Positions 6,126 through 53,450 of a DNA stretch of 64,000 bases are shown in pieces. Origin of the DNA: an uncultured SAR86 cluster bacterium (GTDB lineage Bacteria > Pseudomonadota > Gammaproteobacteria > Magnimaribacterales > AG-339-G14); NCBI GenBank assembly GCA_902522825.1, contig CABYXE010000004.1, forward strand, positions 19,364 through 83,363, in the 5' to 3' direction. The position numbers were made by a program, and so were the translations under genes. The number at the start of each line of letters is the position of its first letter. The stretch's first letter is position 1. The notes below the pieces were generated by a model that was not told the origin of the DNA, did not search any database, and worked only from the letters and a program-made list of their open reading frames with translations.

Positions 6126-6201
6126 TGGTGGGTCGTATAGGATTCGAACCTATGACCAATTGATTAAAAGCCAACTGCTCTACCAACTGAGCTAACGACC
6201 C
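6126..6201 (-). tRNA. lysT: tRNA-Lys (anticodon UUU)
   Basis: The reverse complement GGGTCGTTAGCTCAGTTGGTAGAGCAGTTGGCTTTTAATCAATTGGTCATAGGTTCGAATCCTATACGACCCACCA folds as a cloverleaf with anticodon loop CUUUUAA and an encoded CCA. It is nearly identical to E. coli tRNA-Lys and lies downstream of cpoB as in E. coli. Confidence 0.97.
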
Positions 6202-6222: not shown

Positions 6223-6918
6223 TCAACTTTTTAATTTTAGTAATTCTTGTTCAGATAAAACTGAAGATCCTGAATTTGGGTAATTAAGGATTACTCGTTC
6301 GAAAAAAGCAATAGCCTCATCATTTTTTTCTAACTTTATAGAAATTAGTCCTAACTTATACAAAGCGGTTGAAACTCGTTCATGTTCAGGAAAATTATTA
6401 ATAAGTGAAAAATAGGTTTCGTAAGCATCTTCATTCATCTCTTGTAAGAAATATATTTCTCCTAACCAAAAATATGAATCAACTAGGTAAGCTCCGTTTG
6501 GATAAGACAATATTAAAAATCTTAAATTTTCGGCTGCTTCGGAGTATCTTGAGTTATCGATTAACTTTAAGGTATTTGACCATAAGGTAAATTCTTCCTC
6601 CTCTCCATCTTTCTCAATTAGCTCGGCTAGAGGATTTACAGTTTTTAACTCCTCATCAGGCACTTCTTCTTCGTTAGTTAGAAGAATGACAGCTTCAAGT
6701 TCATGAATTCTTTTATCTAAATCAACGTATCTTGCTTGGTTTGACTCATCTAACTTCTGAACTTCAAATGTGTTTGAATCTATTTGATTAGTTAGCCTTG
6801 CTAGCTCAATCTCTAGGTTTTCTATTTTTTCTAAAATTAAGTCCAGTGATTCATTATTAGTCTGACCTATCAAACTGAAAGAAATAAAAATTAAAGGAAA
6901 AAATATGATTCTTTTCAT
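6223..6918 (-). CDS. cpoB: cell division coordinator CpoB (YbgF), TPR protein
   Basis: Signal peptide, N-terminal coiled coil and C-terminal TPR repeats. It is the last gene of the tol-pal cluster. Confidence 0.85.
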   Translation of the reverse strand: MKRIIFFPLIFISFSLIGQTNNESLDLILEKIENLEIELARLTNQIDSNTFEVQKLDESNQARYVDLDKRIHELEAVILLTNEEEVPDEELKTVNPLAELIEKDGEEEEFTLWSNTLKLIDNSRYSEAAENLRFLILSYPNGAYLVDSYFWLGEIYFLQEMNEDAYETYFSLINNFPEHERVSTALYKLGLISIKLEKNDEAIAFFERVILNYPNSGSSVLSEQELLKLKS

Positions 6919-6922
6919 CTAA

Positions 6923-7390
6923 TTAAAATAATGATATTTCAACTCTTCTATTCTTTTTCCAAGCGCTTTCACTTGATTCAACATCTATAGGTTTTTCTTC
7001 TCCGTAAGAAATCACTTTAATTTTTGATGAAGAAATTCCTTTAATAATTAGGTAATTTTTTACTTCAATTGCTCTTTTTTCTCCTAAGGCCAAATTATAT
7101 TCTCTTGTTCCTCTTTCATCGCAGTGCCCCTCTAATCTAATAGCTTTAGCCTTTTTAGCAAATTCAATATACTTAGAAATAAGTTCTTTTGAATTTGGAC
7201 TCAATGAAGCCTTATCAAATTCAAAATAAATAAGATCATCTAGATCCATATCTAATTTTTTTGTAGAAATATATTGATCACTTTCTGCAGTGGCATAGCT
7301 TGATGATGATATCGAATCAGAAACTTGTGTCGCACAACCGATAATGAATGGAAATAAAATTAATAAAAAAATTTTTTTAAATGATCTCAT
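6923..7390 (-). CDS. pal: peptidoglycan-associated lipoprotein Pal
   Basis: Lipobox IIGCAT and an OmpA-like C-terminal domain (GHCDERGTREYNLALGEKRA). Confidence 0.95.
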   Translation of the reverse strand: MRSFKKIFLLILFPFIIGCATQVSDSISSSSYATAESDQYISTKKLDMDLDDLIYFEFDKASLSPNSKELISKYIEFAKKAKAIRLEGHCDERGTREYNLALGEKRAIEVKNYLIIKGISSSKIKVISYGEEKPIDVESSESAWKKNRRVEISLF

Positions 7391-7457
7391 CTGAAACTCC
7401 TTTGTTAGTAGATTATAAATTAATAAACTCTTATATTTTTGACAAAATTGTTACTTT

Positions 7458-8777
7458 TTAGTTCGTCAAAGGTGACCACGAGGGTTCTCTGACTGATCCA
7501 AATTTAACAGGAAGTCTGAATTTAGATTTACCATCTAAAGTTAAGCCTGCTAAATATCCTTGGGAATTATTTTTTGTAGCATAAATGATTATATTCCCGT
7601 TTGGTGAAATAGTCGGAGATTCATCTAAAGTAGTTTTAGATATAGTATTTATAAATCTCCCTCTTATATTCTTTATTCCGATATGAAATATTCCATTATT
7701 ACCATGAACTAAAACAATATCTTTCCCATTTGGAAAATAACTCGCTCTGGCATTGTAATCACCATCTAAAGTGATTCGTTTTATTCTATTTGAAGAAATG
7801 GTCAATTCATAAATTTGAGGAGAGCCAGATCTATTAGAAGTAAATAGGAGTTTTTTACTATTTGGCGACCATGCTGGTTCAGTATCAATTCCATAATGTG
7901 TGGTGTGTCTAGAAATTTTATTATTTTTAAGGTTATAAATATAAATATCAGGATTTCCTGACATAGACATGACAAATGCTAATTTTTTATTATCTGGAGA
8001 CCATACTGGAGCACTATTACTTAACCCCAATGTCTTTATTGACTCTCTATTGCCAGAAAATAAATCTTGCATATATATTTCAGGATATCCTTTCTCGAAG
8101 GAAACATAAGCTAATTTTTTTATGTCTGATGACCAAGATGGAGACATTAAAGGTGCAGTTGACTCAAATAAAACTTGTTCATTAGACCCATCTATATCTG
8201 ATACACAAATTTTATAAACTTCTTTATCAGGATTTAGAACGTAAGCTAACTTTGTATTAAAAATACCATCTAGACCAGTTATAGCTTTATAAGTTCTATT
8301 ACTAATTACTTTTGAAATTTGATCAAATTCATTGATATCTCCAGAAATATCTCCCTTTAAAATTAACTTTTTTAGAGGTACATTAAAAACAAAATATTCA
8401 ATGAAGATATTCGAGCCACTTATCTCTTTAAAACTTCCAACTACAGCATAGTCAACTTTTAAAATTTTCCAGTCTCTATAAAAAAAATTATCTTCAGAGC
8501 TTGGAAATGACAACATTTCATTTTTAGGCGTAGCTTTAAATTCACCAAACAAAGTTAAATTTTCTTCAATTAAATGTGACAAAGAAATCTTTATAGTTTT
8601 AGTGTTTTCGAAAGGAACTATAGCGATCTTTGGCAGATCTTTTGATCCTTGAGAAATTTCTATCTTAAGTTTTGCGTCAATTGATACTGATAAAAATATG
8701 AGACAAAAAAATAAAGTTTTCAAAATTTTAGTCCTTTGATTTAAAGACCAAATTAAACGATCTAAAATTTCTTTCAA
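7458..8777 (-). CDS. tolB: Tol-Pal system beta-propeller protein TolB
   Basis: Repeated PxWSPD(G/N)KKLAF propeller motifs. The true start may be TTG at 8723, which has AAGGA 9 nt upstream and lies 4 nt after the tolA stop; that would remove the apparent 50-nt overlap. Confidence 0.93.
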   Translation of the reverse strand: MKEILDRLIWSLNQRTKILKTLFFCLIFLSVSIDAKLKIEISQGSKDLPKIAIVPFENTKTIKISLSHLIEENLTLFGEFKATPKNEMLSFPSSEDNFFYRDWKILKVDYAVVGSFKEISGSNIFIEYFVFNVPLKKLILKGDISGDINEFDQISKVISNRTYKAITGLDGIFNTKLAYVLNPDKEVYKICVSDIDGSNEQVLFESTAPLMSPSWSSDIKKLAYVSFEKGYPEIYMQDLFSGNRESIKTLGLSNSAPVWSPDNKKLAFVMSMSGNPDIYIYNLKNNKISRHTTHYGIDTEPAWSPNSKKLLFTSNRSGSPQIYELTISSNRIKRITLDGDYNARASYFPNGKDIVLVHGNNGIFHIGIKNIRGRFINTISKTTLDESPTISPNGNIIIYATKNNSQGYLAGLTLDGKSKFRLPVKFGSVREPSWSPLTN

Positions 8778-9342
8778 AATAATTCCTGTCCATCCCGATT
8801 ACCTCAGTGATAAAGGAAATATTTGCTAATGCTCTAAATGCTGAATCATCAAATATTTTATTGCCACTTGAGGAAATCATTTCGTATTTTAATATCTCAC
8901 CAGAAGGCGCAAGATTTATTTGAATTTCAGTCTCAATATTTTGATTAATTAATGAAGGCTTTTTCCAAATGGAATTTATTCTTTTTTGAATCAAAAAAAT
9001 TCTTACTTGAACTTCTTTTTTTTCCTGAAAAAATTTAGTTTCTTCAATTTGTTTTTGTAAATTATCTAAAGAATTTAAATTTAGTTTATTATTATTTTGT
9101 TCTGAGATTTTTTTTATTTCTTTTTCTATTTCTATATTGTTATTTCTTCTTGTAGACAAAGAATCATTATTTCTTTTTGCCCTTTCATCTTTTATTGCTG
9201 GGAAAGAAATAAACTCAATTGGAATTATTTTTTCTCTATCAGATTGAGGTGTGAAAATTGAAAAATCTAAAGTCAGAATTGCTAATAGAAATAGATGGAA
9301 AAATATTGAATTAATAAAAGAAATTAAGTTATTTGTCATCAA
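8728..9342 (-). CDS. tolA: TolA, unusually short (204 aa)
   Basis: N-terminal TM, a short Lys/Glu/Asn-rich linker and a TolA/TonB-like C-terminal domain. It lies between tolR and tolB. Confidence 0.8.
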   Translation of the reverse strand: MMTNNLISFINSIFFHLFLLAILTLDFSIFTPQSDREKIIPIEFISFPAIKDERAKRNNDSLSTRRNNNIEIEKEIKKISEQNNNKLNLNSLDNLQKQIEETKFFQEKKEVQVRIFLIQKRINSIWKKPSLINQNIETEIQINLAPSGEILKYEMISSSGNKIFDDSAFRALANISFITEVIGMDRNYFERNFRSFNLVFKSKD

Positions 9343-9754
9343 TAGGTTCGGTAATGAAATTTATAGCATCTGGTTTTAAGTCTTGAAGCAAAGACATTAG
9401 TTTTGCTACTTCTCCAAACATTACATTTTTATCAGCCCTTATATAAATCTCTAATGAACTATTATTTTTGAGTATTTTTTGTATTTCTTGTTTTAGTTCG
9501 TTTATTAGAAAAGCTTTGCCTTTTAAGGAATCTAAATCTAAATAAAATTTTCCTTCTGCGTTTATTGAAATAGTAATATTTTCTAAATTTGCTTTATCAA
9601 TTGGTTGAGAATTTACTTCTGGAAGATTTATGTCTATACCTTGAATCATAAAGGGTGCGGTTACCATAAAGATGACTAGTAAGACCAACATCACATCAAC
9701 ATAAGGAATTACATTGATTTCAGTCAAGTATCTTCTTTTCTTAGGAACAAACAT
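9329..9754 (-). CDS. tolR: TolR (ExbD/TolR family)
   Basis: 141 aa with INVIPYVDVMLVLLVIFMVTAP. Confidence 0.93.
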   Translation of the reverse strand: MFVPKKRRYLTEINVIPYVDVMLVLLVIFMVTAPFMIQGIDINLPEVNSQPIDKANLENITISINAEGKFYLDLDSLKGKAFLINELKQEIQKILKNNSSLEIYIRADKNVMFGEVAKLMSLLQDLKPDAINFITEPIDDK

Positions 9755-9760
9755 GTTTTA

Positions 9761-10402
9761 TTAATCTTTTTTAGAAAGAATAATTAGAAACTCCTCACTA
9801 AAATTAAAATAACTTTTAAGTATTTTATTTATATTAGATACATTCCAGTTATAGGATATGAGAGCAGGTATTGCAGTAAATAAGCCTAAGGCTGTTGCGA
9901 CAAGAGCTTCAGAAATACCTGGAGCAACAACTGTAATAGACACTTGTGTTAACTGAGCTAGGCCCCCAAAAGCATTCATAATTCCCCATACAGTTCCAAA
10001 AAGACCTATAAAAGGACTTACTGAGGCTACCGTCGAGAGAAAAGAAAGTCTATTTTCTAAAACTTGCTCATGTCGTGAAATTGTTATTTCCATAACTTTT
10101 TTTGCATCACTTATAGATTTTGATTTATTAAACTCCTCAAAACCAACAAAAAAAATCTGTTCTAAACCAATCTTTTTTTGTTTTCTGGAAATTTCTTTAA
10201 ACACTAGATCGAGTTCTTTGTTTGACCAAAAATAATCTTCAAAATTAAACATGTCTCGTGTAGTTCTGCTCAAGGTTGTCCATCTTTCAAAAATAACCCA
10301 CCAAGAACTTATAGAAGCCGATAACAAAATTATCATCACCAACTGAACAACTAAGCTTGCTTGAAGAAATAAAGAAAAAATATCTAATTCAAAAGAATTC
10401 AA
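9761..10402 (-). CDS. tolQ: TolQ (MotA/ExbB/TolQ family)
   Basis: 213 aa, three TM segments, with the motif SPFIGLFGTVWGIMNAF. Confidence 0.95.
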   Translation of the reverse strand: MNSFELDIFSLFLQASLVVQLVMIILLSASISSWWVIFERWTTLSRTTRDMFNFEDYFWSNKELDLVFKEISRKQKKIGLEQIFFVGFEEFNKSKSISDAKKVMEITISRHEQVLENRLSFLSTVASVSPFIGLFGTVWGIMNAFGGLAQLTQVSITVVAPGISEALVATALGLFTAIPALISYNWNVSNINKILKSYFNFSEEFLIILSKKD

Positions 10403-10800
10403 TTCAGCTCCTTGACCATGTTAGTTTGAAGTTTTTCAGGAACTAGCATAGGTTTTTTTGATTCAATATTTATCGAACCACAAAATACCTGTGCTTCGCA
10501 AATTTTTTCTGAGTCAGAGTTGTAAATTGTTTGTAAAAAATTAAAGCTTACTTTTTTTACACCAACCAACTTAGTTTCTATTTTTATTAATTCATCAAGA
10601 CTTGCAGGCTTCTCATATTCCACTATCAATTTTCTAACAACAAAAATTATTCCTTTTTCCATTAATTCTTTTTGCTCATAACCTAGTGATCTTAAATACT
10701 CTGTACGAGCGCGCTCAAAAAATTTTAAGTAGTTTGCATAGTAGACAAAACCTTGAGCATCTGTATCTTCATAATAAACTCTATATTCTTCAAAATGCAT
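10399..10800 (-). CDS. ybgC: acyl-CoA thioesterase YbgC (4HBT family)
   Basis: RVYYEDTDAQGFVYYANYLKFFERAR. It is the first gene of the tol cluster. Confidence 0.92.
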   Translation of the reverse strand: MHFEEYRVYYEDTDAQGFVYYANYLKFFERARTEYLRSLGYEQKELMEKGIIFVVRKLIVEYEKPASLDELIKIETKLVGVKKVSFNFLQTIYNSDSEKICEAQVFCGSINIESKKPMLVPEKLQTNMVKELN

Positions 10801-10803
10801 GAA

Positions 10804-11214
10804 TTACTTTTGGTGTTTAGCTATATCTTCTGGATAAAGTATTTTCAGAATAAAAATAAAGTCTTTCCAAGCTAAATCGCAAGTGAGTTGATTATCTTTG
10901 GTTAAATTATCGTTAATAGTATGAAGTGGCACTCTTACTTTGATTGGTCTATTATTAAACTTATATATTAAAGCAGGAACCCCTTTATCTTTAGCAGAAT
11001 CTAAAACTTGAGACCACCATTTTTCTATTGGTTCATTACCTTGACCATAACGTTTGCATTCAAGATACCAATTTCCAAGTATTAAATCAGGTAAAAACTT
11101 TTCTCTTGTTTGTTCCAGGATTCTTTTAAGAGGAATAGTTAGATTTAATTCTTCGTTTAAAGAATTAGCAATTTCTCTTTCAAAAGCAGCTCCTTTATTT
11201 CTTGAGTTAGTCAT
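10804..11214 (-). CDS. small PD-(D/E)XK nuclease, Hjc-like putative Holliday-junction resolvase
   Basis: 136 aa. NKGAAFEREIANSL followed by PDLILGNWYLECKRY gives an E...D-x8-E-x-K arrangement. It occupies the ruvC position between yebC and ybgC. Confidence 0.5.
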   Translation of the reverse strand: MTNSRNKGAAFEREIANSLNEELNLTIPLKRILEQTREKFLPDLILGNWYLECKRYGQGNEPIEKWWSQVLDSAKDKGVPALIYKFNNRPIKVRVPLHTINDNLTKDNQLTCDLAWKDFIFILKILYPEDIAKHQK

Positions 11215-11218
11215 TTAT

Positions 11219-11947
11219 TTAAAGATTATCAATAAACTCTGCATTTGAATGAACATTTTGGACATCGTCAAGATCATCTAGATTTTCTAGTAACTTAATT
11301 ACTTTTTCAGATGTATCTTTATCCAGCTCAACATTAACTGATGCATTCATTACTAATTCGCTTTCTTCAATTTCTATAGTTTCAGAGTCCAATACTTCCT
11401 TAACTGCAGATAAATTTTCAACTTCCATATTGATCAAAGTTCTGCCATTTTCTAAAGATTCTAAGTCTTCTATCCCAGTAGATATTAATAGTTCTAGTAA
11501 CTTATCTTCGTCGGAATCTTTTGCAATAATTTGTCCAAATTTTTTAAATAAATACGATACCGATCCGTCCGTTCCAAGACTTCCTCCAGCTTTAGAAAAA
11601 GCATGTCTTACTTCAGCAACTGTTCTATTTCTATTATCTGTCATTGTCTCAACTAATATAGCAACTCCTCCTGGACCATAGCCTTCGTATAGCACTTCTT
11701 CTAAGTTTTCTGATTCTGTATCTCCCGCCCCTCTAGATACCGCTCTTTCTATAGTATCTTTAGGCATATTTGATCTAAATGCTCTGTCCAAAGCTAGTCT
11801 AAGTCTGGGATTATCTGCAGCATCTGAACCTCCTAGCCTAGCAGCCACAGTTATCTCTCTTATTAATTTAGAAAAGACTTTTTGTCTTTTTTCATCCTGT
11901 CTTCCCTTTTGATGCTTAATATTAGCCCACTTAGAATGTCCAGCCAT
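11219..11947 (-). CDS. yebC: YebC/PmpR family transcriptional regulator
   Basis: MAGHSKWANIKHQKGRQDEKR; 242 aa. Confidence 0.95.
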   Translation of the reverse strand: MAGHSKWANIKHQKGRQDEKRQKVFSKLIREITVAARLGGSDAADNPRLRLALDRAFRSNMPKDTIERAVSRGAGDTESENLEEVLYEGYGPGGVAILVETMTDNRNRTVAEVRHAFSKAGGSLGTDGSVSYLFKKFGQIIAKDSDEDKLLELLISTGIEDLESLENGRTLINMEVENLSAVKEVLDSETIEIEESELVMNASVNVELDKDTSEKVIKLLENLDDLDDVQNVHSNAEFIDNL

Positions 11948-11949
11948 AT

Positions 11950-13716
11950 TTAGTCCTTAGGTTTTAAAGTGCTTTTAATTGCTAATTCTTTAAGCTCATC
12001 ATCAGAAATATTACTTGGAGCGTCTGTCATAAGGCAATAAGCTGATTGCGTCTTGGGAAATGCAATTACATCTCTAATTGAGTTTTTGTTGCAAATCAAC
12101 ATGACTAATCTATCAAGACCAAATGCAATTCCTCCATGCGGTGGACATCCATAATCTAAGGCCTCTAGAAAAAAACCAAACTTTTCATCTGCTTCTTCTT
12201 TTGAAATTCCTAAAATAGATAAGACTTTTCTTTGCTCTTCAGAATTATGGATACGCATAGAACCACCACCTATTTCGTATCCATTTAATACAAGATCATA
12301 TGCGTCTGCTATTGCCATGGCTGGGTTTTTCTCAAGTGTTTCTAAATTACCAGAAGTTCTTGTAAAAGGATGATGACTTGGAGTTAACGATCCGTCTTCT
12401 GCTTCATCAAAAACAGGAAAGTCTTTAATCCAAAGAGGAGCCCATTTATCTTTATCAATCAGATGAAGGTCTTCTCCCAACTTTTCTCTTAGAGCTCCCA
12501 TAGACTCATTAACAATTTTTTTATGACCTGCACCAAAAAATACTGTATCACCGGCTGAGAAATTAAGTTTCTCAGAAAGACTAGCTATTTCTTTTTCCGA
12601 AAGAAATTTAAGAATTGGTGATTGCAAACCTTCTTTTAAATCATTTTCATCATTAACTTTTATATAAGCTAAACCTTTAGCACCATAATTTCCTACAAAT
12701 TTTGTGTAGTCATCGATCTGACTTCTAGATAAAGAATTAGAAATTTTCAATGCGACTAGACGTGATTTTCTATTTTTAGCAGGATCACTGAATACTTTAA
12801 ATTCAGATTCAGTAAATATATCTTTAACATCAATCAATTCAAGAGGGTTTCTTAGATCAGGCTTATCTGATCCAAATCTTTCTATAGACTCAGAATAAGA
12901 CATAACAGGGAAATCTTTTAAATCTATCTTCAATGCCTTTTTAAAAATCTCTTTAATTAAATTTTCTCCAAGGGTCATTACTTCTTCCGTTGAAGTGAAA
13001 GAAGATTCAATATCTACTTGCGTAAACTCTGGTTGTCTATCTTTTCTAGTATCTTCATCTCTAAAACATCTAACTATTTGAAAATATTTTCCGAATCCAC
13101 TAATCATTAGTAATTGCTTAAAAAGTTGTGGTGACTGGGGCAATGCATAAAAACTGCCTTGATTTACTCTACTTGGGATAACGAAATCTCTAGCGCCCTC
13201 TGGAGTTGCCTTAGTCATCATAGGCGTTTCTATATCTATAAAATCATTAGATATTAAAAACTGTCTTATTTCATTAGAGACTTTAGACCTAGTTTTTATA
13301 GTTTCCTGCATTTCTGATCTTCTAAGATCAAGATATCTATATTTAAGCCTAGTTTCTTCACCAACTTTTACATATTCATCTAACTGAAACGGCATGGGCT
13401 TACTTTTAGATAAAATAGATAGTTCAGATGAATTCAATTCAATTTCACCAGTTATCATCTTTTCATTCACCGTGCCCTTTGGTCTTTCCTTTACTTCACC
13501 GGAAACAGTTATTACAAATTCATTTCTTATAGACTCAGCTATTTCAAATATATCTTTATTTTGAGGCTCAACTACCACTTGAAGAATTTCATTTCCTTCT
13601 CTTAAGTCAATAAAAATTACACCTCCATGATCTCTAATATTCTCAACCCATCCAGAAACAGTGATTTTTTGTCCCAAACTGTCTTTATCCAAAGTTGGTA
13701 TTTTTATTAAAGTCAT
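11950..13716 (-). CDS. aspS: aspartate--tRNA ligase
   Basis: 588 aa, bacterial type, with class II motifs (FRDEDTRKDRQPEFTQVD; GGGSMRIH; GLDRLVM). Confidence 0.97.
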   Translation of the reverse strand: MTLIKIPTLDKDSLGQKITVSGWVENIRDHGGVIFIDLREGNEILQVVVEPQNKDIFEIAESIRNEFVITVSGEVKERPKGTVNEKMITGEIELNSSELSILSKSKPMPFQLDEYVKVGEETRLKYRYLDLRRSEMQETIKTRSKVSNEIRQFLISNDFIDIETPMMTKATPEGARDFVIPSRVNQGSFYALPQSPQLFKQLLMISGFGKYFQIVRCFRDEDTRKDRQPEFTQVDIESSFTSTEEVMTLGENLIKEIFKKALKIDLKDFPVMSYSESIERFGSDKPDLRNPLELIDVKDIFTESEFKVFSDPAKNRKSRLVALKISNSLSRSQIDDYTKFVGNYGAKGLAYIKVNDENDLKEGLQSPILKFLSEKEIASLSEKLNFSAGDTVFFGAGHKKIVNESMGALREKLGEDLHLIDKDKWAPLWIKDFPVFDEAEDGSLTPSHHPFTRTSGNLETLEKNPAMAIADAYDLVLNGYEIGGGSMRIHNSEEQRKVLSILGISKEEADEKFGFFLEALDYGCPPHGGIAFGLDRLVMLICNKNSIRDVIAFPKTQSAYCLMTDAPSNISDDELKELAIKSTLKPKD

Positions 13717-13982
13717 TTTTCTTTTTTGGCTATTTTCTTGGAAGTGTCGGTAGTTTTTTTATCTTTCTTATCTGATTGTACTAAATTTTTCTTACTACCT
13801 GTTTTAAAGTCTGTTTCATACCATCCTTTCCCGCCTAAACGAAAAGAAGGAGCTGAAATAACTTTCTTTGCAAATGCTTTTGGGGAGCAATCACACTTAA
13901 CTTTTTTTAATGATTCTGAAAGGCTAACAATCTTTTCAAAACGTTTTCCGCAACTATCACATTGAAATTCATATATTGGCAT
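13713..13982 (-). CDS. FmdB-family zinc-ribbon protein
   Basis: MPIYEFQCDSCGKRFE plus a second Cys pair and a Lys-rich tail. Overlaps aspS by 4 nt. Confidence 0.75.
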   Translation of the reverse strand: MPIYEFQCDSCGKRFEKIVSLSESLKKVKCDCSPKAFAKKVISAPSFRLGGKGWYETDFKTGSKKNLVQSDKKDKKTTDTSKKIAKKEK

Positions 13983-14047: not shown

Positions 14048-15307
14048 ATGAAAGCTTCTTCATATCACTATAAAACCCTCAAAGATGCTCCAAGTGACAC
14101 TGAGTTGGTAAGTCATAAATTGATGATTAGAGCCGGAATGATCAAACCATTAGCATCTGGAATATATAGTTGGTTGCCACTTGGATTAAAAGTTTTAAAA
14201 AAAATTGAAAATATCATAAGAGAAAAAATGGACAAAGGTGGTTGTTTAGAGATTTATATGCCAATGGTACAGCCTAAAAGTTTATGGGACGAAACTGGAA
14301 GATCAGACGAATATGGGCCTGAGTTATTAGGCTTTAAAGATAGAGGAGATAGAGAATTTTATTTAGGTCCTACTCATGAAGAAGTTGTTACAGATTTAGC
14401 AAGAAAAGAAATTAATAGTCCAAAAGATCTTCCCCTTACTTTTTATCAAATACAAGCAAAATTTAGAGATGAAATAAGGCCGAGATTTGGAGTAATGAGA
14501 GCTAGAGAGTTTCTCATGAAGGATGGTTACTCTTTTGATTTGAGTGAAACCTCAATGAAACAAACTTATTCAAAAATTAAACAAATTTATATAGAAATAT
14601 TTAATAAATTGAAATTAGATTATCGAATTGTTAACGCTGACTCTGGTTCTATTGGAGGAAGTTCTTCAGAGGAATTTCATGTTTTGGCTGACTCAGGGGA
14701 AGACTTGTTAGCTTTTAGTGATGAAAGTGATTTTGCTTGTAATGTAGAACTTATTGAGGAGGATGACGTTAACAAAATTCCAGGGATGGATAGTCCAGAT
14801 GGAATGGGGAAACTAGATGTAAAAAAAGGTATTGAAGTTGGTCATATATTTCAATTGGGAAATAAATATAGCAAATCTATGGATCTTAAAGTTCAAGACA
14901 ATAATGAAATAAAATACTTGGAAATGGGATGTTATGGAATAGGTGTTTCAAGAATTATTGCCGCATCAATAGAGCAGAGTCATGATGAAAAGGGAATAAT
15001 TTTCAATGAAACGCTTTCGCCATTTAATTTAATCATTATATTAATTAATCAGAAAAATGATGAAAGTATTAATCTAAAAGCTAATTATTTCTACGAAAAA
15101 TTAAAAGATGCAGGTAATGATGTGCTATTGGACGATAGAGACTGTTCACCGGGTATTAAATTTTCTGACGCAGAATTAATTGGTATTCCTCACCAATTAA
15201 TAATAAGTAAGAAAACTATAGAGTCTGATAGTTATGAAGTTGTTACTAGGAAAGATCTATCTAAGAAAGAAATTACTGAAGAAGAATTATTCGCTCTCTT
15301 CAGTTAA
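14048..15307 (+). CDS. proS: proline--tRNA ligase, bacterial type lacking the INS editing domain
   Basis: Motif 2 is [25 protein letters not shown] and motif 3 is [13 protein letters not shown]. Only about 20 aa separate NVELIEEDD from [11 protein letters not shown]. 419 aa. Confidence 0.93.
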
Positions 15308-16378
15308 ATCTGTGTCAGGTAAATCTATTTCTTTTGGTGAATCTTTTTCTTTGATTGCAGCGTATATTCTACTTTCAATCTCTTGCATTATTTTTTGATT
15401 TTGCTTCAAAAACTCTCCTGCATTTGTCTTACCTTGTCCTATCTTTTCACCTTCATAAGAATACCAAGCGCCAGCTTTTTCAACTATCTTGTGTTCGGCT
15501 CCGATATCTAGTAACTCACCTGCTTTATTTATACCTTTACCGTATAAGATTTGAAATTCTGCCTGCCTGAATGGTGGAGCAACTTTATTTTTAACTACTT
15601 TTACTCTTGTTTCGTTACCTGAAACTTCATCGCCGTCTTTGACTGTTCCAATTCGTCTTATATCCAATCTTACTGAAGAATAAAACTTAAGAGCGTTACC
15701 GCCAGATGTTGTTTCTGGATTACCGAACATAACTCCTATTTTCATTCTTATCTGATTAATAAAAATTACAGTTGTATTAGATCTTTTTATGTTTCCTGTT
15801 ATTTTTCTTAGTGCTTGAGACATCAATCTAGCTTGCAGTCCAACATGATGATCTCCCATTTCACCTTCTATTTCAGCACGTGGAGTTAAAGCAGCTACTG
15901 AATCTATAACTAAAACGTCTACTCCTCCTGATTTAACCATAATATCCGCGACTTCAAGAGCTTGTTCTCCATTATCAGGTTGAGACAGCAAAAGATCATC
16001 AACTTTAACACCTAATTTTTCAGCATATATCGGATCTAAGGCATGTTCTGCATCAATAAAGGCAGCTGTTCCTCCTTGTTTTTGGCACTCAGCTATAACT
16101 TGCAAGGTTAAAGTAGTTTTTCCAGATGACTCGGGACCAAATATCTCTACTACTCTTCCTCTTGGCAATCCCATTACGCCAAGCGCCAAATCTAAACCTA
16201 GTGATCCTGTAGATATACTAGGAACATCTTCTACTTTCTTATCGCCCATCCTCATGATGGTTCCAGTGCCAAATTGACTTTCAATTTGGGTTATAGCAGA
16301 TGCTAAATTCTTATTCTTATCAGTTGATAAGTCCTCGTTTTTTGTATTTTTTGTGTTTTTTGTGTTTTTTATAGCCAT
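15287..16378 (-). CDS. recA: recombinase RecA
   Basis: Walker [11 protein letters not shown], plus [10 protein letters not shown] and [19 protein letters not shown]. 363 aa. Confidence 0.98.
16337..16369 (-). repeat. 9-bp tandem repeat (AAAAAYACA, about 3.6 copies) inside the recA 5' end
   Basis: The minus strand reads aaa aac aca aaa aac aca aaa aat aca aaa aac, encoding (KNT)3KN directly after MAI. Confidence 0.85.
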
Positions 16379-16423: not shown

Positions 16424-16945
16424 TTAATTTTGCAATGTTTTTAAAAAATTATTTATTTCTGTAAATGCATAGATAACGCTTTGATTTCTTACGTCGTCTC
16501 TTTGTCCCTCAAAATGCATCGTTCTTGTAATAATTTTTTCTGAATTTCCTAAAGCAAAACAAACTGTCCCAACAGGTCTCTCTTTGGAGCCTCCTCCAGG
16601 ACCAGCTACTCCACTAATAGCTATTCCGTAATCTGCTCGGCCAAGCTGCATTGCTCCAATAGCCATTTCTCTAACAACTGACTCAGAAACAGCACCTTCT
16701 TTTAAAAGAGTTTCTTTGTTTACACCTAATATTTTAACTTTAGCGCTATTTGAATAAGTTATGAGACCTGTACCAAACCACCTTGAACTTCCAGGAACTC
16801 CGGTAATTTCTTTACCTAGCCAACCACCAGTACAGGATTCAGCTGTACTTATTGTTTGTTTTTTTTCGGACAAAAAATTCCCTAGATATTCCAATAAAGA
16901 ATATAAATCGGTCGTTGTTTCAGTCATATATAAATTATAATTCAT
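16424..16945 (-). CDS. pncC: CinA C-terminal domain protein / nicotinamide-nucleotide amidohydrolase PncC
   Basis: ESCTGGW and [10 protein letters not shown] motifs, upstream of recA. The start may be the second ATG at 16927. Confidence 0.85.
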
Positions 16946-16947
16946 TC

Positions 16948-17274
16948 ATGACCTATATTGTTGGCTCTGCTTGTATCAATTGTAAGCACACGGATTGCGT
17001 GGAAGTTTGTCCTGTGGATTGTTTTTACGAAGGAGAAAATACCCTAGTGATAGATCCTGAAGAGTGTATCGATTGTGGCTTGTGTGAACCGGAATGTCCT
17101 ATTAATGCTATTTATGCTGAAGACGAAGTGCCTGCCGATGAAATTGAATTCATTGAAATCAATGAAAAATATTCTAAAATTTGGCCCAACATTACAGAAG
17201 CGAAAGCACCTTTGCCTGATCATGAAAAGTGGAAGGATATGCCCAATAAAATAGATGCTTTAATTTTAGAATAA
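16948..17274 (+). CDS. fdxA: 7Fe ferredoxin (FdxA type)
   Basis: [31 protein letters not shown]...[17 protein letters not shown] trimmed the ORF-track N-terminal extension (16852) to the conserved MTY start. Confidence 0.9.
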
Positions 17275-44990: not shown

Positions 44991-45023
44991 AGAAGCTTAA
45001 AGAGCTAAATTTTAGGTTTTTTT

Positions 45024-45360
45024 GGAGAGCTGATCCATAAGCCGGGTTCTGTTTTAAGTAATCATTCATCTTGAGTTTACGTCACCGCAAACCTCTAGCA
45101 ACTTACCCAGATTCAATGCGGATCACATTAAAGAATCTCTATTTAGTCTTGCTCCAGACGGGGTTTACCTTGCAATATTTGTCTCCAAATATACGGTGAG
45201 CTCTTACCTCACCTTTTCACCCTTACCCAAAAATTGGGCGGTATACTTTCTGCTGCACTTGCCGTAACAGTTTTCACTGCTCCCAGGCGTTACCTGGCGT
45301 CTTATCCTAAGGAGCCCGGACTTTCCTCTGATTAAAAACCAGCGATTACTCGATCAGCTC
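45024..45360 (-). ncRNA. rnpB: RNase P RNA, bacterial type A
   Basis: The reverse complement contains GAGGAAAGTCCGGGCTCC, GCCAGGTAACGCCTGGG, GGTAAGGGTGAAAAGGTG and ACAGAACCCGGCTTAT, and the 5' end (GAGCTGATC) pairs with the 3' end (GATCAGCTC). About 337 nt. Confidence 0.95.
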
Positions 45361-45366
45361 GAAGAA

Positions 45367-52138: not shown

Positions 52139-53450
52139 TTTCTATATTTTTTTTTCTTAATTTCAAAGCTTCTGAATGGGCAAAAAGTCCTTCCAATTCT
52201 GCAATCTCAATTGAGTTTTTGATAACTTTTTGCAACTCTTTAGAATCGTGATTTTCAGATAAGATAGAATATGAAGAAGTAATAAGAAAATCATTTAAAC
52301 TAACTTGCGAGCTAAATCTACTAGCTCCATTAGTTGGAATGACATGACTAGGTCCAGCACAATAATCACCGAACACAGCGCTATTAGATGCTCCGATAAA
52401 AATTGCACCGGCAGAAAAATTCTCTTTTATAATGTTATCTAAATTTTCAATAGAAATTTGTAAATGCTCTGGATGAACAAGATTACATATTTTTTCAGCA
52501 TCACTTAAGTTATTTACTTCGACTAAAAAAGAAAAATCCTTTAAAGATTTTTTTGCTATTTCAGATCTAGACAATTTATTTAATTGATCTATCAGAGCTT
52601 CATTTACATTTTCTTTTATGCCTTCACCAATTAAAATCAAAAAACATGAAGAGTCTGTGCCATGCTCTGCTTGAGCCAAAAGATCGGCAGCTATAAATTC
52701 AGGATTTGCTGAACTATCCGCAATTATCATTACTTCAGACGGACCCGTTAAAGAGTCAATACCGACAATTCCATATAACTGACGTTTTGCTTCTGCGACA
52801 TATTTGTTTCCCGGTCCAAAAATTTTATCGACCTTTTTTACTGAATTTGTTCCAAAAGCCATTGCCGCAATAGAGTGAGCTCCTCCAATGCTTATAGCTT
52901 CCTTGACTTCGCCTATGTGGCAAGAAGCCAGCATTAAATTTGTTACCTCTTTATTAGATGGAGGAAAAGATACAAGAATTTCTTCAACTCCTGCCAAGTT
53001 TGCTAATACGGATGTCATTAACACAGAAGATGGATAAGTAGCTGTGCCGCCTGGAGCATAAAGACCTACTCTCTTGATTGGTCTAACTACCTGGCCGTAT
53101 TCATTAAAAGCAGAATCTTTGTCTTTCCAATTACGGATTAATCTCTTTGAGTGAAATTTAACTATCCTTTCTTTTAAATACTCTAGGTTTTCGATAATGT
53201 TTTTATCTAATTTATCATAAGAATTTTTAAAATCTTTTTTCTTGAATTTAAAACTTTTAGGAGAAGAAAAGACAACATCATCAAATTTTTTTGAAAAGGA
53301 AATCAATGCATTATCTTGAGATAATTTTACTTCATTTAAAATATCGGTGACTTGTTTTTTAAATTCATCTGATAGTTTTAAGGAATCTGAAGATTCGTAA
53401 TTATTTATAAAATCATCAAATTCAAGCTCTTTCATAAGACCCTTTTTCAT
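52131..53450 (-). CDS. hisD: histidinol dehydrogenase
   Basis: GLYAPGGTATYPSSVLM, AQAEHG and PTNGASRFSS. Confidence 0.95.
   Translation of the reverse strand: MKKGLMKELEFDDFINNYESSDSLKLSDEFKKQVTDILNEVKLSQDNALISFSKKFDDVVFSSPKSFKFKKKDFKNSYDKLDKNIIENLEYLKERIVKFHSKRLIRNWKDKDSAFNEYGQVVRPIKRVGLYAPGGTATYPSSVLMTSVLANLAGVEEILVSFPPSNKEVTNLMLASCHIGEVKEAISIGGAHSIAAMAFGTNSVKKVDKIFGPGNKYVAEAKRQLYGIVGIDSLTGPSEVMIIADSSANPEFIAADLLAQAEHGTDSSCFLILIGEGIKENVNEALIDQLNKLSRSEIAKKSLKDFSFLVEVNNLSDAEKICNLVHPEHLQISIENLDNIIKENFSAGAIFIGASNSAVFGDYCAGPSHVIPTNGASRFSSQVSLNDFLITSSYSILSENHDSKELQKVIKNSIEIAELEGLFAHSEALKLRKKNIETN

What the first reader, a model, noticed from the sequence alone, without database searches (positions are those of the whole stretch)
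10804..11214. Hjc-like PD-(D/E)XK nuclease in the slot where ruvC-ruvA-ruvB is expected
The order aspS-yebC-X-ybgC-tolQRAB-pal-cpoB mirrors the aspS-yebC-ruvC-ruvA-ruvB-ybgC-tolQ order of Pseudomonas-type gammaproteobacteria. Here X is one 136-aa ORF, and ruvA and ruvB are absent from the locus. X shows no RuvC-like features. It has NKGAAFEREIANSL (E12/E14), then PD43LILGNWYLE52CK54, an E...D-x8-E-x-K nuclease core. That core and the N-terminal KG-x-x-x-ER-x-I motif are typical of archaeal Hjc and phage-type junction resolvases. Gaps of 3-4 nt on both sides imply co-transcription with yebC and the tol operon. This suggests non-orthologous displacement of the RuvABC resolvasome by a minimal resolvase in a streamlined genome.
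Basis: partly seen in the sequence, partly recalled or inferred. Interest (0 to 1): 0.65.

Follow-up and report, generated by a model that had tools for sequence, protein, structure and literature searches.

The report
Phage-derived Hjc-like resolvase replacing RuvABC in SAR86
In the abundant marine bacterium SAR86, the three-gene machine that normally untangles recombining chromosomes (RuvABC) is missing, and exactly where it should sit there is one small, strongly conserved nuclease of phage origin that resembles the archaeal junction-cutting enzyme Hjc.

Summary
Window 10804-11214 (-) encodes a 136-aa protein, X, 4 nt after yebC and 3 nt before ybgC-tolQRAB-pal-cpoB. The window is SAR86 (about 31% GC).

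X belongs to Pfam PF24608 (PDDEXK_15) and PHROG 244, which is annotated as a junction resolvase. Its family profile matches archaeal Hjc (hhalign 96.4%, E 1e-9). Seven residues the literature calls essential in P. furiosus Hjc have conserved counterparts: E12, R13, R31, D43, E52, K54 and K85. A confident AF2 model (pLDDT 90) has Hje/Hjc resolvases as its 19 best PDB matches.

X lies in the same slot in 80 of 80 SAR86 species and in a deeper relative. It evolves more slowly than aspS (dN/dS about 0.06). Its cellular clade is monophyletic, and the family members examined beyond it are phage genes in YqaJ/Sak/ERF recombination modules.

Published marker tables show RuvA, RuvB and RuvC absent from the closed SAR86 genome HIMB1674 and from nearly all the environmental genomes visible in the stored table.

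Junction cleavage itself is untested. E14 is not conserved across the family.

The parts
10804..11214 (-). ORF X: 136-aa PD-(D/E)XK nuclease of family PDDEXK_15 (PF24608), Hjc-like fold; proposed cellular Holliday junction resolvase
11053..11181 (-). Catalytic core of X, running from the E12 codon (11179-11181) through R31 and PD43 (11086-11088) to E52-C-K54 (11053-11061). These align with Pfu Hjc E9, R25, D33, E46 and K48.
   Evidence: sequence; conservation; alignments
10804..10893 (-). C-terminal ~30 residues of X (about 108-136: a strand plus two helices). Strongly conserved within SAR86 (T111, D113, L114, W116, F119, L126, Y127, D130, I131) but not across the phage family. A lineage-specific module of unknown role, perhaps dimerisation or partner binding.
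   Evidence: the Pfam match ends at residue 107
11219..11947 (-). yebC (TACO1/YebC family), immediately upstream of X with a 4-nt gap; the usual upstream neighbour of ruvC in bacteria
11950..13716 (-). aspS (aspartyl-tRNA synthetase), upstream of yebC
10399..10800 (-). ybgC (4HBT acyl-CoA thioesterase), first gene of the tol-pal cluster, 3 nt downstream of X
6223..10402 (-). tolQ (9761-10402), tolR (9329-9754), tolA (8728-9342), tolB (7458-8777), pal (6923-7390), cpoB/ybgF (6223-6918)
15287..16378 (-). recA, 4 kb upstream on the same strand; the recombinase that makes the junctions X would have to resolve (context only)

Best explanation
X is a domesticated phage PD-(D/E)XK nuclease of the PDDEXK_15 family, a distant homologue of archaeal Hjc/Hje. 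I propose that it serves as the cellular Holliday junction resolvase of SAR86 and replaced the ruvC-ruvA-ruvB operon in situ between yebC and ybgC-tol.

Proposed mechanism (inferred): a homodimer binds four-way junctions made by RecA. It uses the E12/D43/E52/K54 metal-ion site, with R13, R31 and K85 contacting DNA, to make paired nicks that give ligatable duplexes. It would act without RuvAB, as stand-alone phage and archaeal resolvases do, relying on spontaneous branch migration or on another helicase such as RecG.

Shown here: family membership, homology and fold similarity to Hjc, conservation of the catalytic residues, fixed position, strong purifying selection, and phage provenance of the wider family. 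Taken from the literature: absence of RuvABC from SAR86. Inferred: dimerisation, junction specificity, in vivo role and co-transcription.
For: Family: PF24608 at 42.9 bits against a cut-off of 27; PHROG 244, 'RusA-like Holliday junction resolvase', 6e-14; JGI names several orthologues 'Holliday junction resolvase'.

Homology to Hjc: hhalign of A2 against A4 gives 96.4% probability, E 1.1e-9, 96 columns. Six of the top nine matches of an HMM search against PDB sequences are Hjc.

Fold: AF2 model with pLDDT 90.3 and pTM 0.86. Foldseek PDB ranks 1-19 are all Hje/Hjc (E 4e-4 to 6e-2, TM 0.45-0.60), followed by RecU. Named BFVD matches include phage and archaeal-virus 'Holliday junction resolvase' entries.

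Residues: E12 96%, D43 100%, E52 97%, K54 99%, R13 82%, R31 97%, and K85 as K or R in 97% of 110 diverse representatives. They align with Pfu Hjc E9, D33, E46, K48, R10, R25 and K81, the residues mutagenesis found essential (review PMC10956419).

Slot: yebC-X adjacent in 80 of 80 SAR86 species loci, with ybgC-tol following wherever the contig reaches it; also in the closed HIMB1674 genome and in a deeper lineage at 53% identity. YebC, YbgC, TolQ, TolR and TolB are the top STRING partners of RuvABC (PMC3403352). In P. aeruginosa PA0964 is yebC and PA0965-0967 are ruvC, ruvA and ruvB.

Loss of RuvABC: Table S1 of PMC11582366; no Ruv homologue in the window or in 1.4 Mb of SAR86 loci.

Selection: median identity 66.7%, above aspS (63.8), yebC (62.6) and proS (59.9). 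dN/dS is 0.058 at dS 0.71, equal to aspS. GC3 matches the neighbours.

Phage role: in six phage or prophage contexts homologues sit beside YqaJ exonuclease, Sak/ERF annealing proteins and replicative helicases. No RusA, RuvC or other known resolvase family appears in the precomputed Pfam hits for those flanks.

Precedents: M. thermautotrophicum Hjc rescues E. coli ruvC mutants; prophage RusA with RecG suppresses ruv mutants; the phage Tth15-6 Hjc-type enzyme cleaves junctions in vitro (PMC8805305).
Against: I found no biochemically tested member of PDDEXK_15; two literature searches found nothing.

X does not hit Pfam Hjc, RecU or VRR_NUC directly. Structural similarity to Hjc is moderate (TM about 0.5, rmsd 4-6 A). 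X has a long 23-43 loop and a lineage-specific C-terminus.

Dimerisation was not modelled. The PD-(D/E)XK fold also serves restriction, repair and RNA-processing enzymes.

Absence of RuvABC rests on a published marker table for SAR86 in general, not on the genome of this window. It is unknown whether SAR86 has RecG, RusA or another resolvase. YqgF/RuvX (PF03652) is present.

The link between yebC and ruvC is positional only.
Confidence: 0.72

Rival explanations
1. X is a structure-specific nuclease for other branched or damaged DNA (stalled or reversed forks, flaps, D-loops, phage-style debranching), not a dedicated Holliday junction resolvase. On this view SAR86 deals with junctions some other way, for example by dissolution or by avoiding them.
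For: According to the abstract of PMC3864405 (listed), viral resolvases are typically more promiscuous on branched DNA than bacterial ones. X derives from a phage family. RuvAB, RadA and Rep are all missing in SAR86, so recombination pathways are broadly remodelled.
Against: The best structural and profile relatives are exclusively junction resolvases. All seven residues essential in Hjc are conserved. recA, recO and recR are retained, so junctions should form and need resolving.
Confidence: 0.15
2. X compensates for the loss of MutS/MutL as a non-canonical mismatch or lesion endonuclease, analogous to the PD-(D/E)XK enzyme NucS/EndoMS.
For: MutS and MutL markers are absent from SAR86. X is a PD-(D/E)XK nuclease.
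Against: No Pfam hit to NucS or any mismatch-repair family. No NucS structure appears among the top 50 Foldseek PDB matches. X is a single 136-aa domain. Phage relatives sit in recombination modules, not repair modules.
Confidence: 0.04
3. X is a selfish or defensive phage leftover (restriction-like nuclease, toxin or anti-phage effector) that merely landed beside yebC.
For: The wider family is phage-borne, and the PD-(D/E)XK fold is common in restriction and defence systems.
Against: No PADLOC match. No partner methylase, antitoxin or other phage gene at the locus. The position is fixed in 80 of 80 species and in a deeper lineage. X is more conserved than aspS, with dN/dS 0.06 and host-like GC3. 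The cellular clade is monophyletic, which indicates vertical descent.
Confidence: 0.04

Closest known systems
Archaeal Holliday junction resolvases Hjc/Hje (Pfam PF01870, COG1591; PDB 1GEF, 1HH1, 1OB8, 2WCW)
   Same: Same PD-(D/E)XK core and a similar size (about 125-140 aa). The N-terminal K-G-x-x-x-E-R motif is shared. The E...D...ExK site has near-identical spacing: Pfu Hjc E9/D33/E46/K48 against X E12/D43/E52/K54. The basic residues R10, R25 and K81 correspond to R13, R31 and K85. Profile-profile homology is 96.4%, and Hjc/Hje are the best structural matches.
   Different: X gives no direct hit to the Hjc Pfam model, and TM is only about 0.5. It has a longer loop between helix 1 and the catalytic strand, with its own conserved R31/L33/Q35. 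It also has a conserved WW-x-Q in helix 2 and a lineage-specific C-terminal strand plus two helices. It is bacterial and phage-borne rather than archaeal. No archaeal-type PCNA-binding (PIP) motif was looked for, and a bacterium has no PCNA.
Hjc_15-6 of Thermus phage Tth15-6 (PDB 7BGS/7BNX; PMC8805305)
   Same: A bacteriophage-encoded archaeal-type PD-(D/E)XK resolvase with an E-xD-ExK motif (E10/D40/E53/K55). Junction cleavage has been shown in vitro, which demonstrates that this fold is used as a resolvase by bacterial viruses.
   Different: Hjc_15-6 matches Pfam Hjc and COG1591 directly, while X is in the separate family PF24608. Hjc_15-6 is a phage gene, not a fixed chromosomal gene. It was not among the top 50 Foldseek matches of X.
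RecU of Firmicutes and Mollicutes (PF03838)
   Same: The established case of a PD-(D/E)XK resolvase non-orthologously replacing RuvC in bacteria (PMC3403352). It is the next structural neighbour after Hjc (E 0.15-0.3).
   Different: RecU lineages keep RuvAB, and recU is not located at the ruv locus. SAR86 lost ruvA, ruvB and ruvC together, and X sits exactly in their place. There is no significant sequence match between X and RecU.
RusA of defective prophage DLP12 (E. coli)
   Same: A small stand-alone resolvase of phage origin that can substitute for the whole RuvABC system in a gammaproteobacterium when RecG is present. PHROG 244 carries the functional label 'RusA-like'.
   Different: RusA has an unrelated fold and a different catalytic site (D70/D72/K76/D91). 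In E. coli it is a cryptic suppressor, not the fixed housekeeping resolvase.

Membership tests
Pfam PF24608 PDDEXK_15 (phage putative PDDEXK endonuclease) | Score above the Pfam gathering threshold | tested here: met
   42.9 bits against a cut-off of 27, E 6e-11, residues 3-107. All homologues returned carry PF24608.
Pfam PF24608 PDDEXK_15 (phage putative PDDEXK endonuclease) | Conserved E...(P)D...ExK nuclease motif | tested here: met
   E12 96%, D43 100%, E52 97%, K54 99% in 110 representatives at 50% clustering.
Archaeal Hjc (PF01870 / COG1591) | Direct match to the family HMM | tested here: not met
   PF01870 is not listed even at E <= 10. The family profile against Hjc PDB sequences gives only E 0.13-0.9.
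Archaeal Hjc (PF01870 / COG1591) | Homology detectable by profile-profile comparison | tested here: met
   hhalign: 96.4% probability, E 1.1e-9, 96 aligned columns.
Archaeal Hjc (PF01870 / COG1591) | Hjc fold | tested here: met
   Foldseek PDB ranks 1-19 are all Hje/Hjc, probability 0.84-1.00, TM 0.45-0.60, from a model with pLDDT 90.
Archaeal Hjc (PF01870 / COG1591) | Residues essential in Pfu Hjc: E9, R10, R25, D33, E46, K48, K81 | tested here: met
   They align with E12, R13, R31, D43, E52, K54 and K85, each 82-100% conserved or conservatively substituted. The residue list comes from PMC10956419.
Archaeal Hjc (PF01870 / COG1591) | Homodimer with two active sites | not testable with these tools
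   Only monomer prediction is available. The X helix at 64-74 aligns with the Hjc helix that carries F68 and F72; that these two residues mediate dimerisation is my recollection, not something checked here.
Archaeal Hjc (PF01870 / COG1591) | Mg2+-dependent symmetric cleavage of four-way junctions | not testable with these tools
   Needs biochemistry.
RuvC (PF02075) | RNase H-like fold and a match to the RuvC model | tested here: not met
   No Pfam hit. E. coli RuvC tblastn does not hit X. The fold is PD-(D/E)XK.
RusA (PF05866) | Match to the RusA model or fold | tested here: not met
   No Pfam hit and no RusA structure among the Foldseek matches. The PHROG label 'RusA-like' is functional only.
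RecU (PF03838) | Match to the RecU model or fold | tested here: not met
   No Pfam hit. Foldseek against 1ZP7 and 1RZN gives E 0.15-0.34, TM 0.34-0.40.
RuvABC resolvasome locus (yebC-ruvC-ruvA-ruvB-ybgC-tol) | ruvC, ruvA and ruvB present between yebC and ybgC | tested here: not met
   A single ORF with 3-4 nt gaps. No Ruv homologue in the window or in 80 SAR86 loci. Markers absent from the closed genome.
Known anti-phage defence systems (PADLOC) | Match to any defence protein model | tested here: not met
   0 families at E <= 1.

The most novel reading that the evidence does not exclude
An entire order of free-living, globally abundant marine Gammaproteobacteria (SAR86/Magnimaribacterales) has discarded the near-universal RuvABC resolvasome, along with RadA, MutS/MutL and Rep. 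It resolves recombination intermediates with a single domesticated phage nuclease of archaeal Hjc type, inserted precisely where ruvCAB used to be. This would be a one-gene cellular resolvase system working without RuvAB in a bacterium. It would also be the first functional assignment for the PDDEXK_15 family.
Probability: 0.6. Interest if true: 0.72.

Novelty: new variant of a known kind. Interest (0 to 1): 0.66.

Why it matters
RuvAB is present in more than 98% of sequenced bacteria, and the exceptions are mostly parasites with condensed genomes (PMC3403352). SAR86 is a free-living lineage and one of the most abundant in the surface ocean. Its lack of RuvABC has so far appeared only as missing CheckM markers in a supplementary table (PMC11582366), and I found no proposed replacement.

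Identifying X as the probable replacement does several things:
- It explains how RecA-dependent recombination can be completed in these cells.
- It gives a clean example of in-situ non-orthologous displacement of a three-gene operon by one phage gene during genome streamlining.
- It assigns a testable function to an uncharacterised Pfam and PHROG family that is widespread in marine temperate phages.
- It offers a minimal bacterial resolvase for biochemical study and as a tool.
- It bears on genome-completeness estimates for SAR86 and on how recombination shapes SAR86 population structure.

Tried and rejected
- A weak E. coli RuvC tblastn hit in the window (52668-53123, E 7e-4) suggested a hidden RuvC. 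It lies inside histidinol dehydrogenase (PF00815, 1.6e-131) and was rejected as chance.
- A direct phmmer search of X against PDB sequences found nothing. A family profile and a structure were needed.
- NCBIfam gave only a meaningless sub-threshold YpfM hit.
- PADLOC found nothing, so the defence reading was set aside.
- Literature searches for SAR86 with ruvC, SAR86 with Holliday junction, and PF24608 or PDDEXK_15 found nothing. One search failed on a term that was too short.
- The SAR86 paper's supplements have no KO-level data, so recG and rusA status could not be obtained.
- The prophage-remnant reading was rejected on conservation, synteny and composition.
- A homodimer model was not attempted because the predictor accepts only single native sequences.

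Full report
**1. Observation**

The quoted motifs are in the sequence.

Pfam identifies the neighbours as follows:
- aspS (11950-13716)
- yebC (11219-11947)
- X
- a 4HBT thioesterase, ybgC (10399-10800)
- tolQ, tolR, tolA, tolB
- an OmpA-family pal
- a TPR protein, cpoB

The intergenic gaps are 4 nt and 3 nt. A simple scan finds no terminator-like site between aspS and tolA; the only one, at 7964-7945, is inside tolB. That fits one transcription unit but does not prove it.

The window is about 31% GC with tightly packed genes. tblastn with E. coli RuvA, RuvB and RuvC finds no homologue in the 64 kb. The only marginal hit falls inside histidinol dehydrogenase.

**2. Organism and distribution**

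X has hundreds of close homologues in marine metagenomes. A scan of one genome per GTDB species returned 80 loci at 61-92% identity, nearly all titled SAR86. They include the complete chromosome of the first isolate, HIMB1674 (CP151794.1, L039).

In all 80 loci X directly follows yebC, and ybgC-tolQR(A)B-pal-cpoB follows wherever the contig extends that far. recA, proS, a zinc-ribbon gene and aspS lie upstream. HIMB1674 was checked explicitly; there the X stop overlaps the ybgC start (TAATG).

A more distant cellular lineage has the identical arrangement. It belongs to the cluster of P0126/P0315, is 53% identical to X, is named 'MAG: putative PDDEXK endonuclease [Gammaproteobacteria bacterium]', and occurs on contigs up to 1.13 Mb at 34.5% GC.

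In a neighbour-joining tree the SAR86 sequences form a single clade with this lineage as nearest outgroup. The simplest reading is one ancient insertion followed by vertical descent.

**3. Selection**

- Across the 80 species X keeps a median 66.7% identity to the window protein. That is higher than AspS (63.8), YebC (62.6), ProS (59.9), YbgC (54.9) or any Tol-Pal protein. Only RecA (81.6) is higher.
- Against the closest species, where dS is 0.71 and not saturated, dN/dS is 0.058, the same as aspS.
- GC (0.299) and GC3 (0.168) match the neighbouring genes.

X is therefore an old, fully ameliorated gene under strong constraint, not a decaying prophage fragment.

**4. What the protein is**

Profile libraries:
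- Pfam places X in PF24608 PDDEXK_15, 'phage putative PDDEXK endonuclease' (42.9 bits, cut-off 27).
- PHROGs places it in phrog_244, annotated 'RusA-like Holliday junction resolvase' (6e-14).
- It does not hit the Pfam models for Hjc, RecU, VRR_NUC, RusA or RuvC, and it hits nothing in PADLOC.

Family size and conserved residues:
- An exhaustive profile search of 1.84 billion representatives found only 482 clusters at E <= 1e-3, so the family is small.
- In 110 full-length diverse representatives the conserved residues are E12 (96%), D43 (100%), E52 (97%) and K54 (99%). Also conserved are R5, K7, G8, R13, R31, Q35, W66, W67, Q69, P80 and a basic residue at position 85.
- E14 is only 47% conserved.

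Relationship to Hjc:
- A family profile searched against PDB sequences ranks archaeal Hjc proteins in six of the top nine places, with the catalytic residues aligned, but at non-significant E-values of 0.13-0.9.
- A profile-profile comparison with an alignment of genuine Hjc proteins (PF01870) is significant: 96.4% probability, E 1.1e-9, 96 columns.
- The pairings are E12-E9, R13-R10, R31-R25, D43-D33, E52-E46, K54-K48 and K85-K81.
- These seven Pfu Hjc residues are the ones a 2024 review reports as essential by mutagenesis (PMC10956419).

**5. Structure**

AlphaFold2 on a 50-sequence alignment gives a confident model (mean pLDDT 90.3, pTM 0.86). Its topology is helix, two strands, helix, strands, as expected for a PD-(D/E)XK core, followed by a C-terminal strand and two helices.

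Foldseek against the PDB returns only archaeal junction resolvases in ranks 1-19:
- S. solfataricus Hje (1OB8, 1OB9; E 4e-4, 23% identity)
- A. fulgidus Hjc
- P. furiosus Hjc
- S. tokodaii ST1444
- S. solfataricus Hjc

RecU follows at E of about 0.2, and restriction enzymes come after that at non-significant scores. TM-scores are 0.45-0.60, so X is a divergent relative, not a close copy.

Against viral models, the best matches (TM about 0.8) are unnamed phage proteins. Named matches include 'Holliday junction resolvase' of Lactobacillus phage 3-521, Halogranum virus HGTV-1 and SIRV1, a T5-type 'D14 protein', and a RecU-like protein.

**6. Provenance**

Apart from the sister Gammaproteobacteria MAG lineage described in section 2, every homologue outside SAR86 whose context I examined is viral.
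- tblastn finds 33-43% identical genes in Roseobacter, Vibrio, Pseudomonas and Salmonella phages, annotated 'putative PDDEXK endonuclease' or 'putative resolvase'.
- One cluster is named 'resolvase [uncultured Mediterranean phage uvMED]'.
- In six metagenomic contexts the gene sits in temperate-phage early regions. Its neighbours are YqaJ exonuclease, Sak or ERF annealing proteins, DnaB-like or primase-helicase genes, integrase and terminase.
- That is the position where lambdoid phages carry RusA or Rap (my knowledge).
- No RusA, RuvC or other known resolvase family appears in the precomputed Pfam hits within +/-10 kb in those six contexts.

**7. Is RuvABC really gone?**

I could not scan a whole SAR86 genome, so this rests on a published table. 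Ramfelt et al. [quoted passage not shown] They add that 27 of the 28 are systematically absent from 732 environmental SAR86 genomes.

Their Table S1 marks the following as absent from HIMB1674, and they are essentially all zero in the 47 environmental-genome columns visible in the stored, truncated table:
- RuvA_N (PF01330), RuvA_C (PF07499), RuvB_C (PF05491) and RuvC (PF02075)
- RadA, MutS, MutL, Rep and YbaB

RecO, RecR and YqgF (PF03652) are present. The paper does not mention X or any resolvase.

For comparison, Zhang et al. 2012 found RuvA and RuvB missing from fewer than 2% of sequenced bacteria, mostly parasites with condensed genomes. They list YebC, YbgC, TolB, TolQ and TolR as the top genomic-context partners of RuvABC (PMC3403352). 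In P. aeruginosa PA0964 is yebC and PA0965-0967 are ruvC, ruvA and ruvB. That the tol genes follow from PA0968 onward is my own knowledge of the PAO1 annotation.

**8. Interpretation**

The evidence fits one explanation best. An ancestor of SAR86 acquired a phage PDDEXK_15 nuclease at the ruv locus and lost ruvC, ruvA and ruvB. X has since been kept as a core gene, most plausibly as the cell's junction-resolving enzyme acting after RecA/RecOR.

Three precedents make this workable:
- An archaeal Hjc restores repair to E. coli ruvC mutants.
- Prophage RusA suppresses ruv mutants provided RecG is present.
- A Thermus phage Hjc-type enzyme cleaves junctions in vitro.

The following remain inferred: dimerisation, junction specificity, cleavage symmetry, the branch-migration partner, and co-transcription with yebC and tol.

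The SAR86-specific conserved C-terminal ~30 residues lie beyond the Pfam match and are not conserved in phage relatives. Their role is unexplained; they may be a host-specific interaction or dimerisation element.

**9. Rivals**

- A broader branched-DNA nuclease role is the main alternative (about 0.15).
- A NucS-like mismatch endonuclease role, suggested by the loss of MutSL, has no structural or contextual support.
- Defence or selfish-element readings are contradicted by fixed synteny, vertical descent, high conservation, the absence of partner genes, and no PADLOC hit.

**10. Novelty and score**

The protein belongs to an existing but uncharacterised Pfam family, and some pipelines already label orthologues 'Holliday junction resolvase'. 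Replacement of RuvC by a PD-(D/E)XK enzyme is known from RecU.

What is new:
- the whole ruvCAB operon is lost in a free-living, very abundant order;
- the replacement is in situ, by a single phage-derived Hjc-type gene;
- the published, unexplained RuvABC absence can now be linked to this gene.

I rate it a new variant of a known kind, interest 0.66. Confidence that X is an Hjc-like PD-(D/E)XK nuclease is about 0.95. Confidence that it is the functional replacement for RuvABC is about 0.7.

Noticed in passing
L078 (PAWD01000035.1, 1-11850): A contig titled 'MAG: Thaumarchaeota archaeon isolate SAT137' carries the complete SAR86-type recA-proS-aspS-yebC-X-ybgC-tolQRAB-pal-cpoB block at 36% GC. 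It is almost certainly a SAR86 contig mis-binned into an archaeal MAG.
   Followed up: partly
Literature: Table S1 of PMC11582366: Besides RuvABC, the closed SAR86 genome lacks the markers for RadA, MutS (domains I and II), MutL, Rep helicase and YbaB/EbfC. This is a broad erosion of recombination and repair functions in a free-living lineage. YqgF/RuvX, RecO and RecR are retained.
   Followed up: partly
L082 9307-9738, L094 8999-9430, L088 4932-5399: In several phage contigs PDDEXK_15 co-occurs with a second uncharacterised nuclease family, PDDEXK_14 (PF24579). In L082, L094 and L095 there is also a RecA-dependent nuclease domain (PF16786). These may form a recurrent phage recombination-nuclease set.
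   Followed up: no
window 10804-10893 (X residues about 108-136): The C-terminal ~30 residues of X are near-invariant within SAR86 (T111, D113, L114, W116, F119, L126, Y127, D130, I131) but lie outside the Pfam match and are not conserved in phage homologues. This looks like a host-specific addition of unknown role.
   Followed up: partly
window 15287-15307: recA (minus strand) and proS (plus strand) converge, and their 3' ends overlap by 21 nt. A CinA/PncC-domain gene (16424-16945) lies directly upstream of recA, and no recX-like ORF follows recA. This shows how tightly the genome is packed.
   Followed up: no
L091-L093 (deeper SAR86-related lineage): This lineage has a thiolase gene inserted between recA and proS. 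In L091 aspS is called as two ORFs (7497-8384 and 8338-9258), but it is intact in L092 and L093. That is probably a frameshift error in a long-read assembly rather than a pseudogene.
   Followed up: no
window 8728-8777 and 16852-16945: The mechanically called TTG starts of tolB (7458-8777) and of the ferredoxin ORF (16852-17274) overlap the upstream or opposite genes by 50 and 94 nt. The true starts are probably further downstream.
   Followed up: no
window 45022-45361 (-) and 6129-6201 (-): Bacterial RNase P RNA class A (306 bits) and one tRNA directly downstream of cpoB. These are the only Rfam matches at gathering score in the window.
   Followed up: no
window 13713-13982 (-): A small zinc-ribbon protein (PF09723, 89 aa) whose stop overlaps the aspS start by 4 nt. 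It is conserved upstream of aspS in most of the SAR86 loci (in all 72 whose contig extends upstream of aspS).
   Followed up: no
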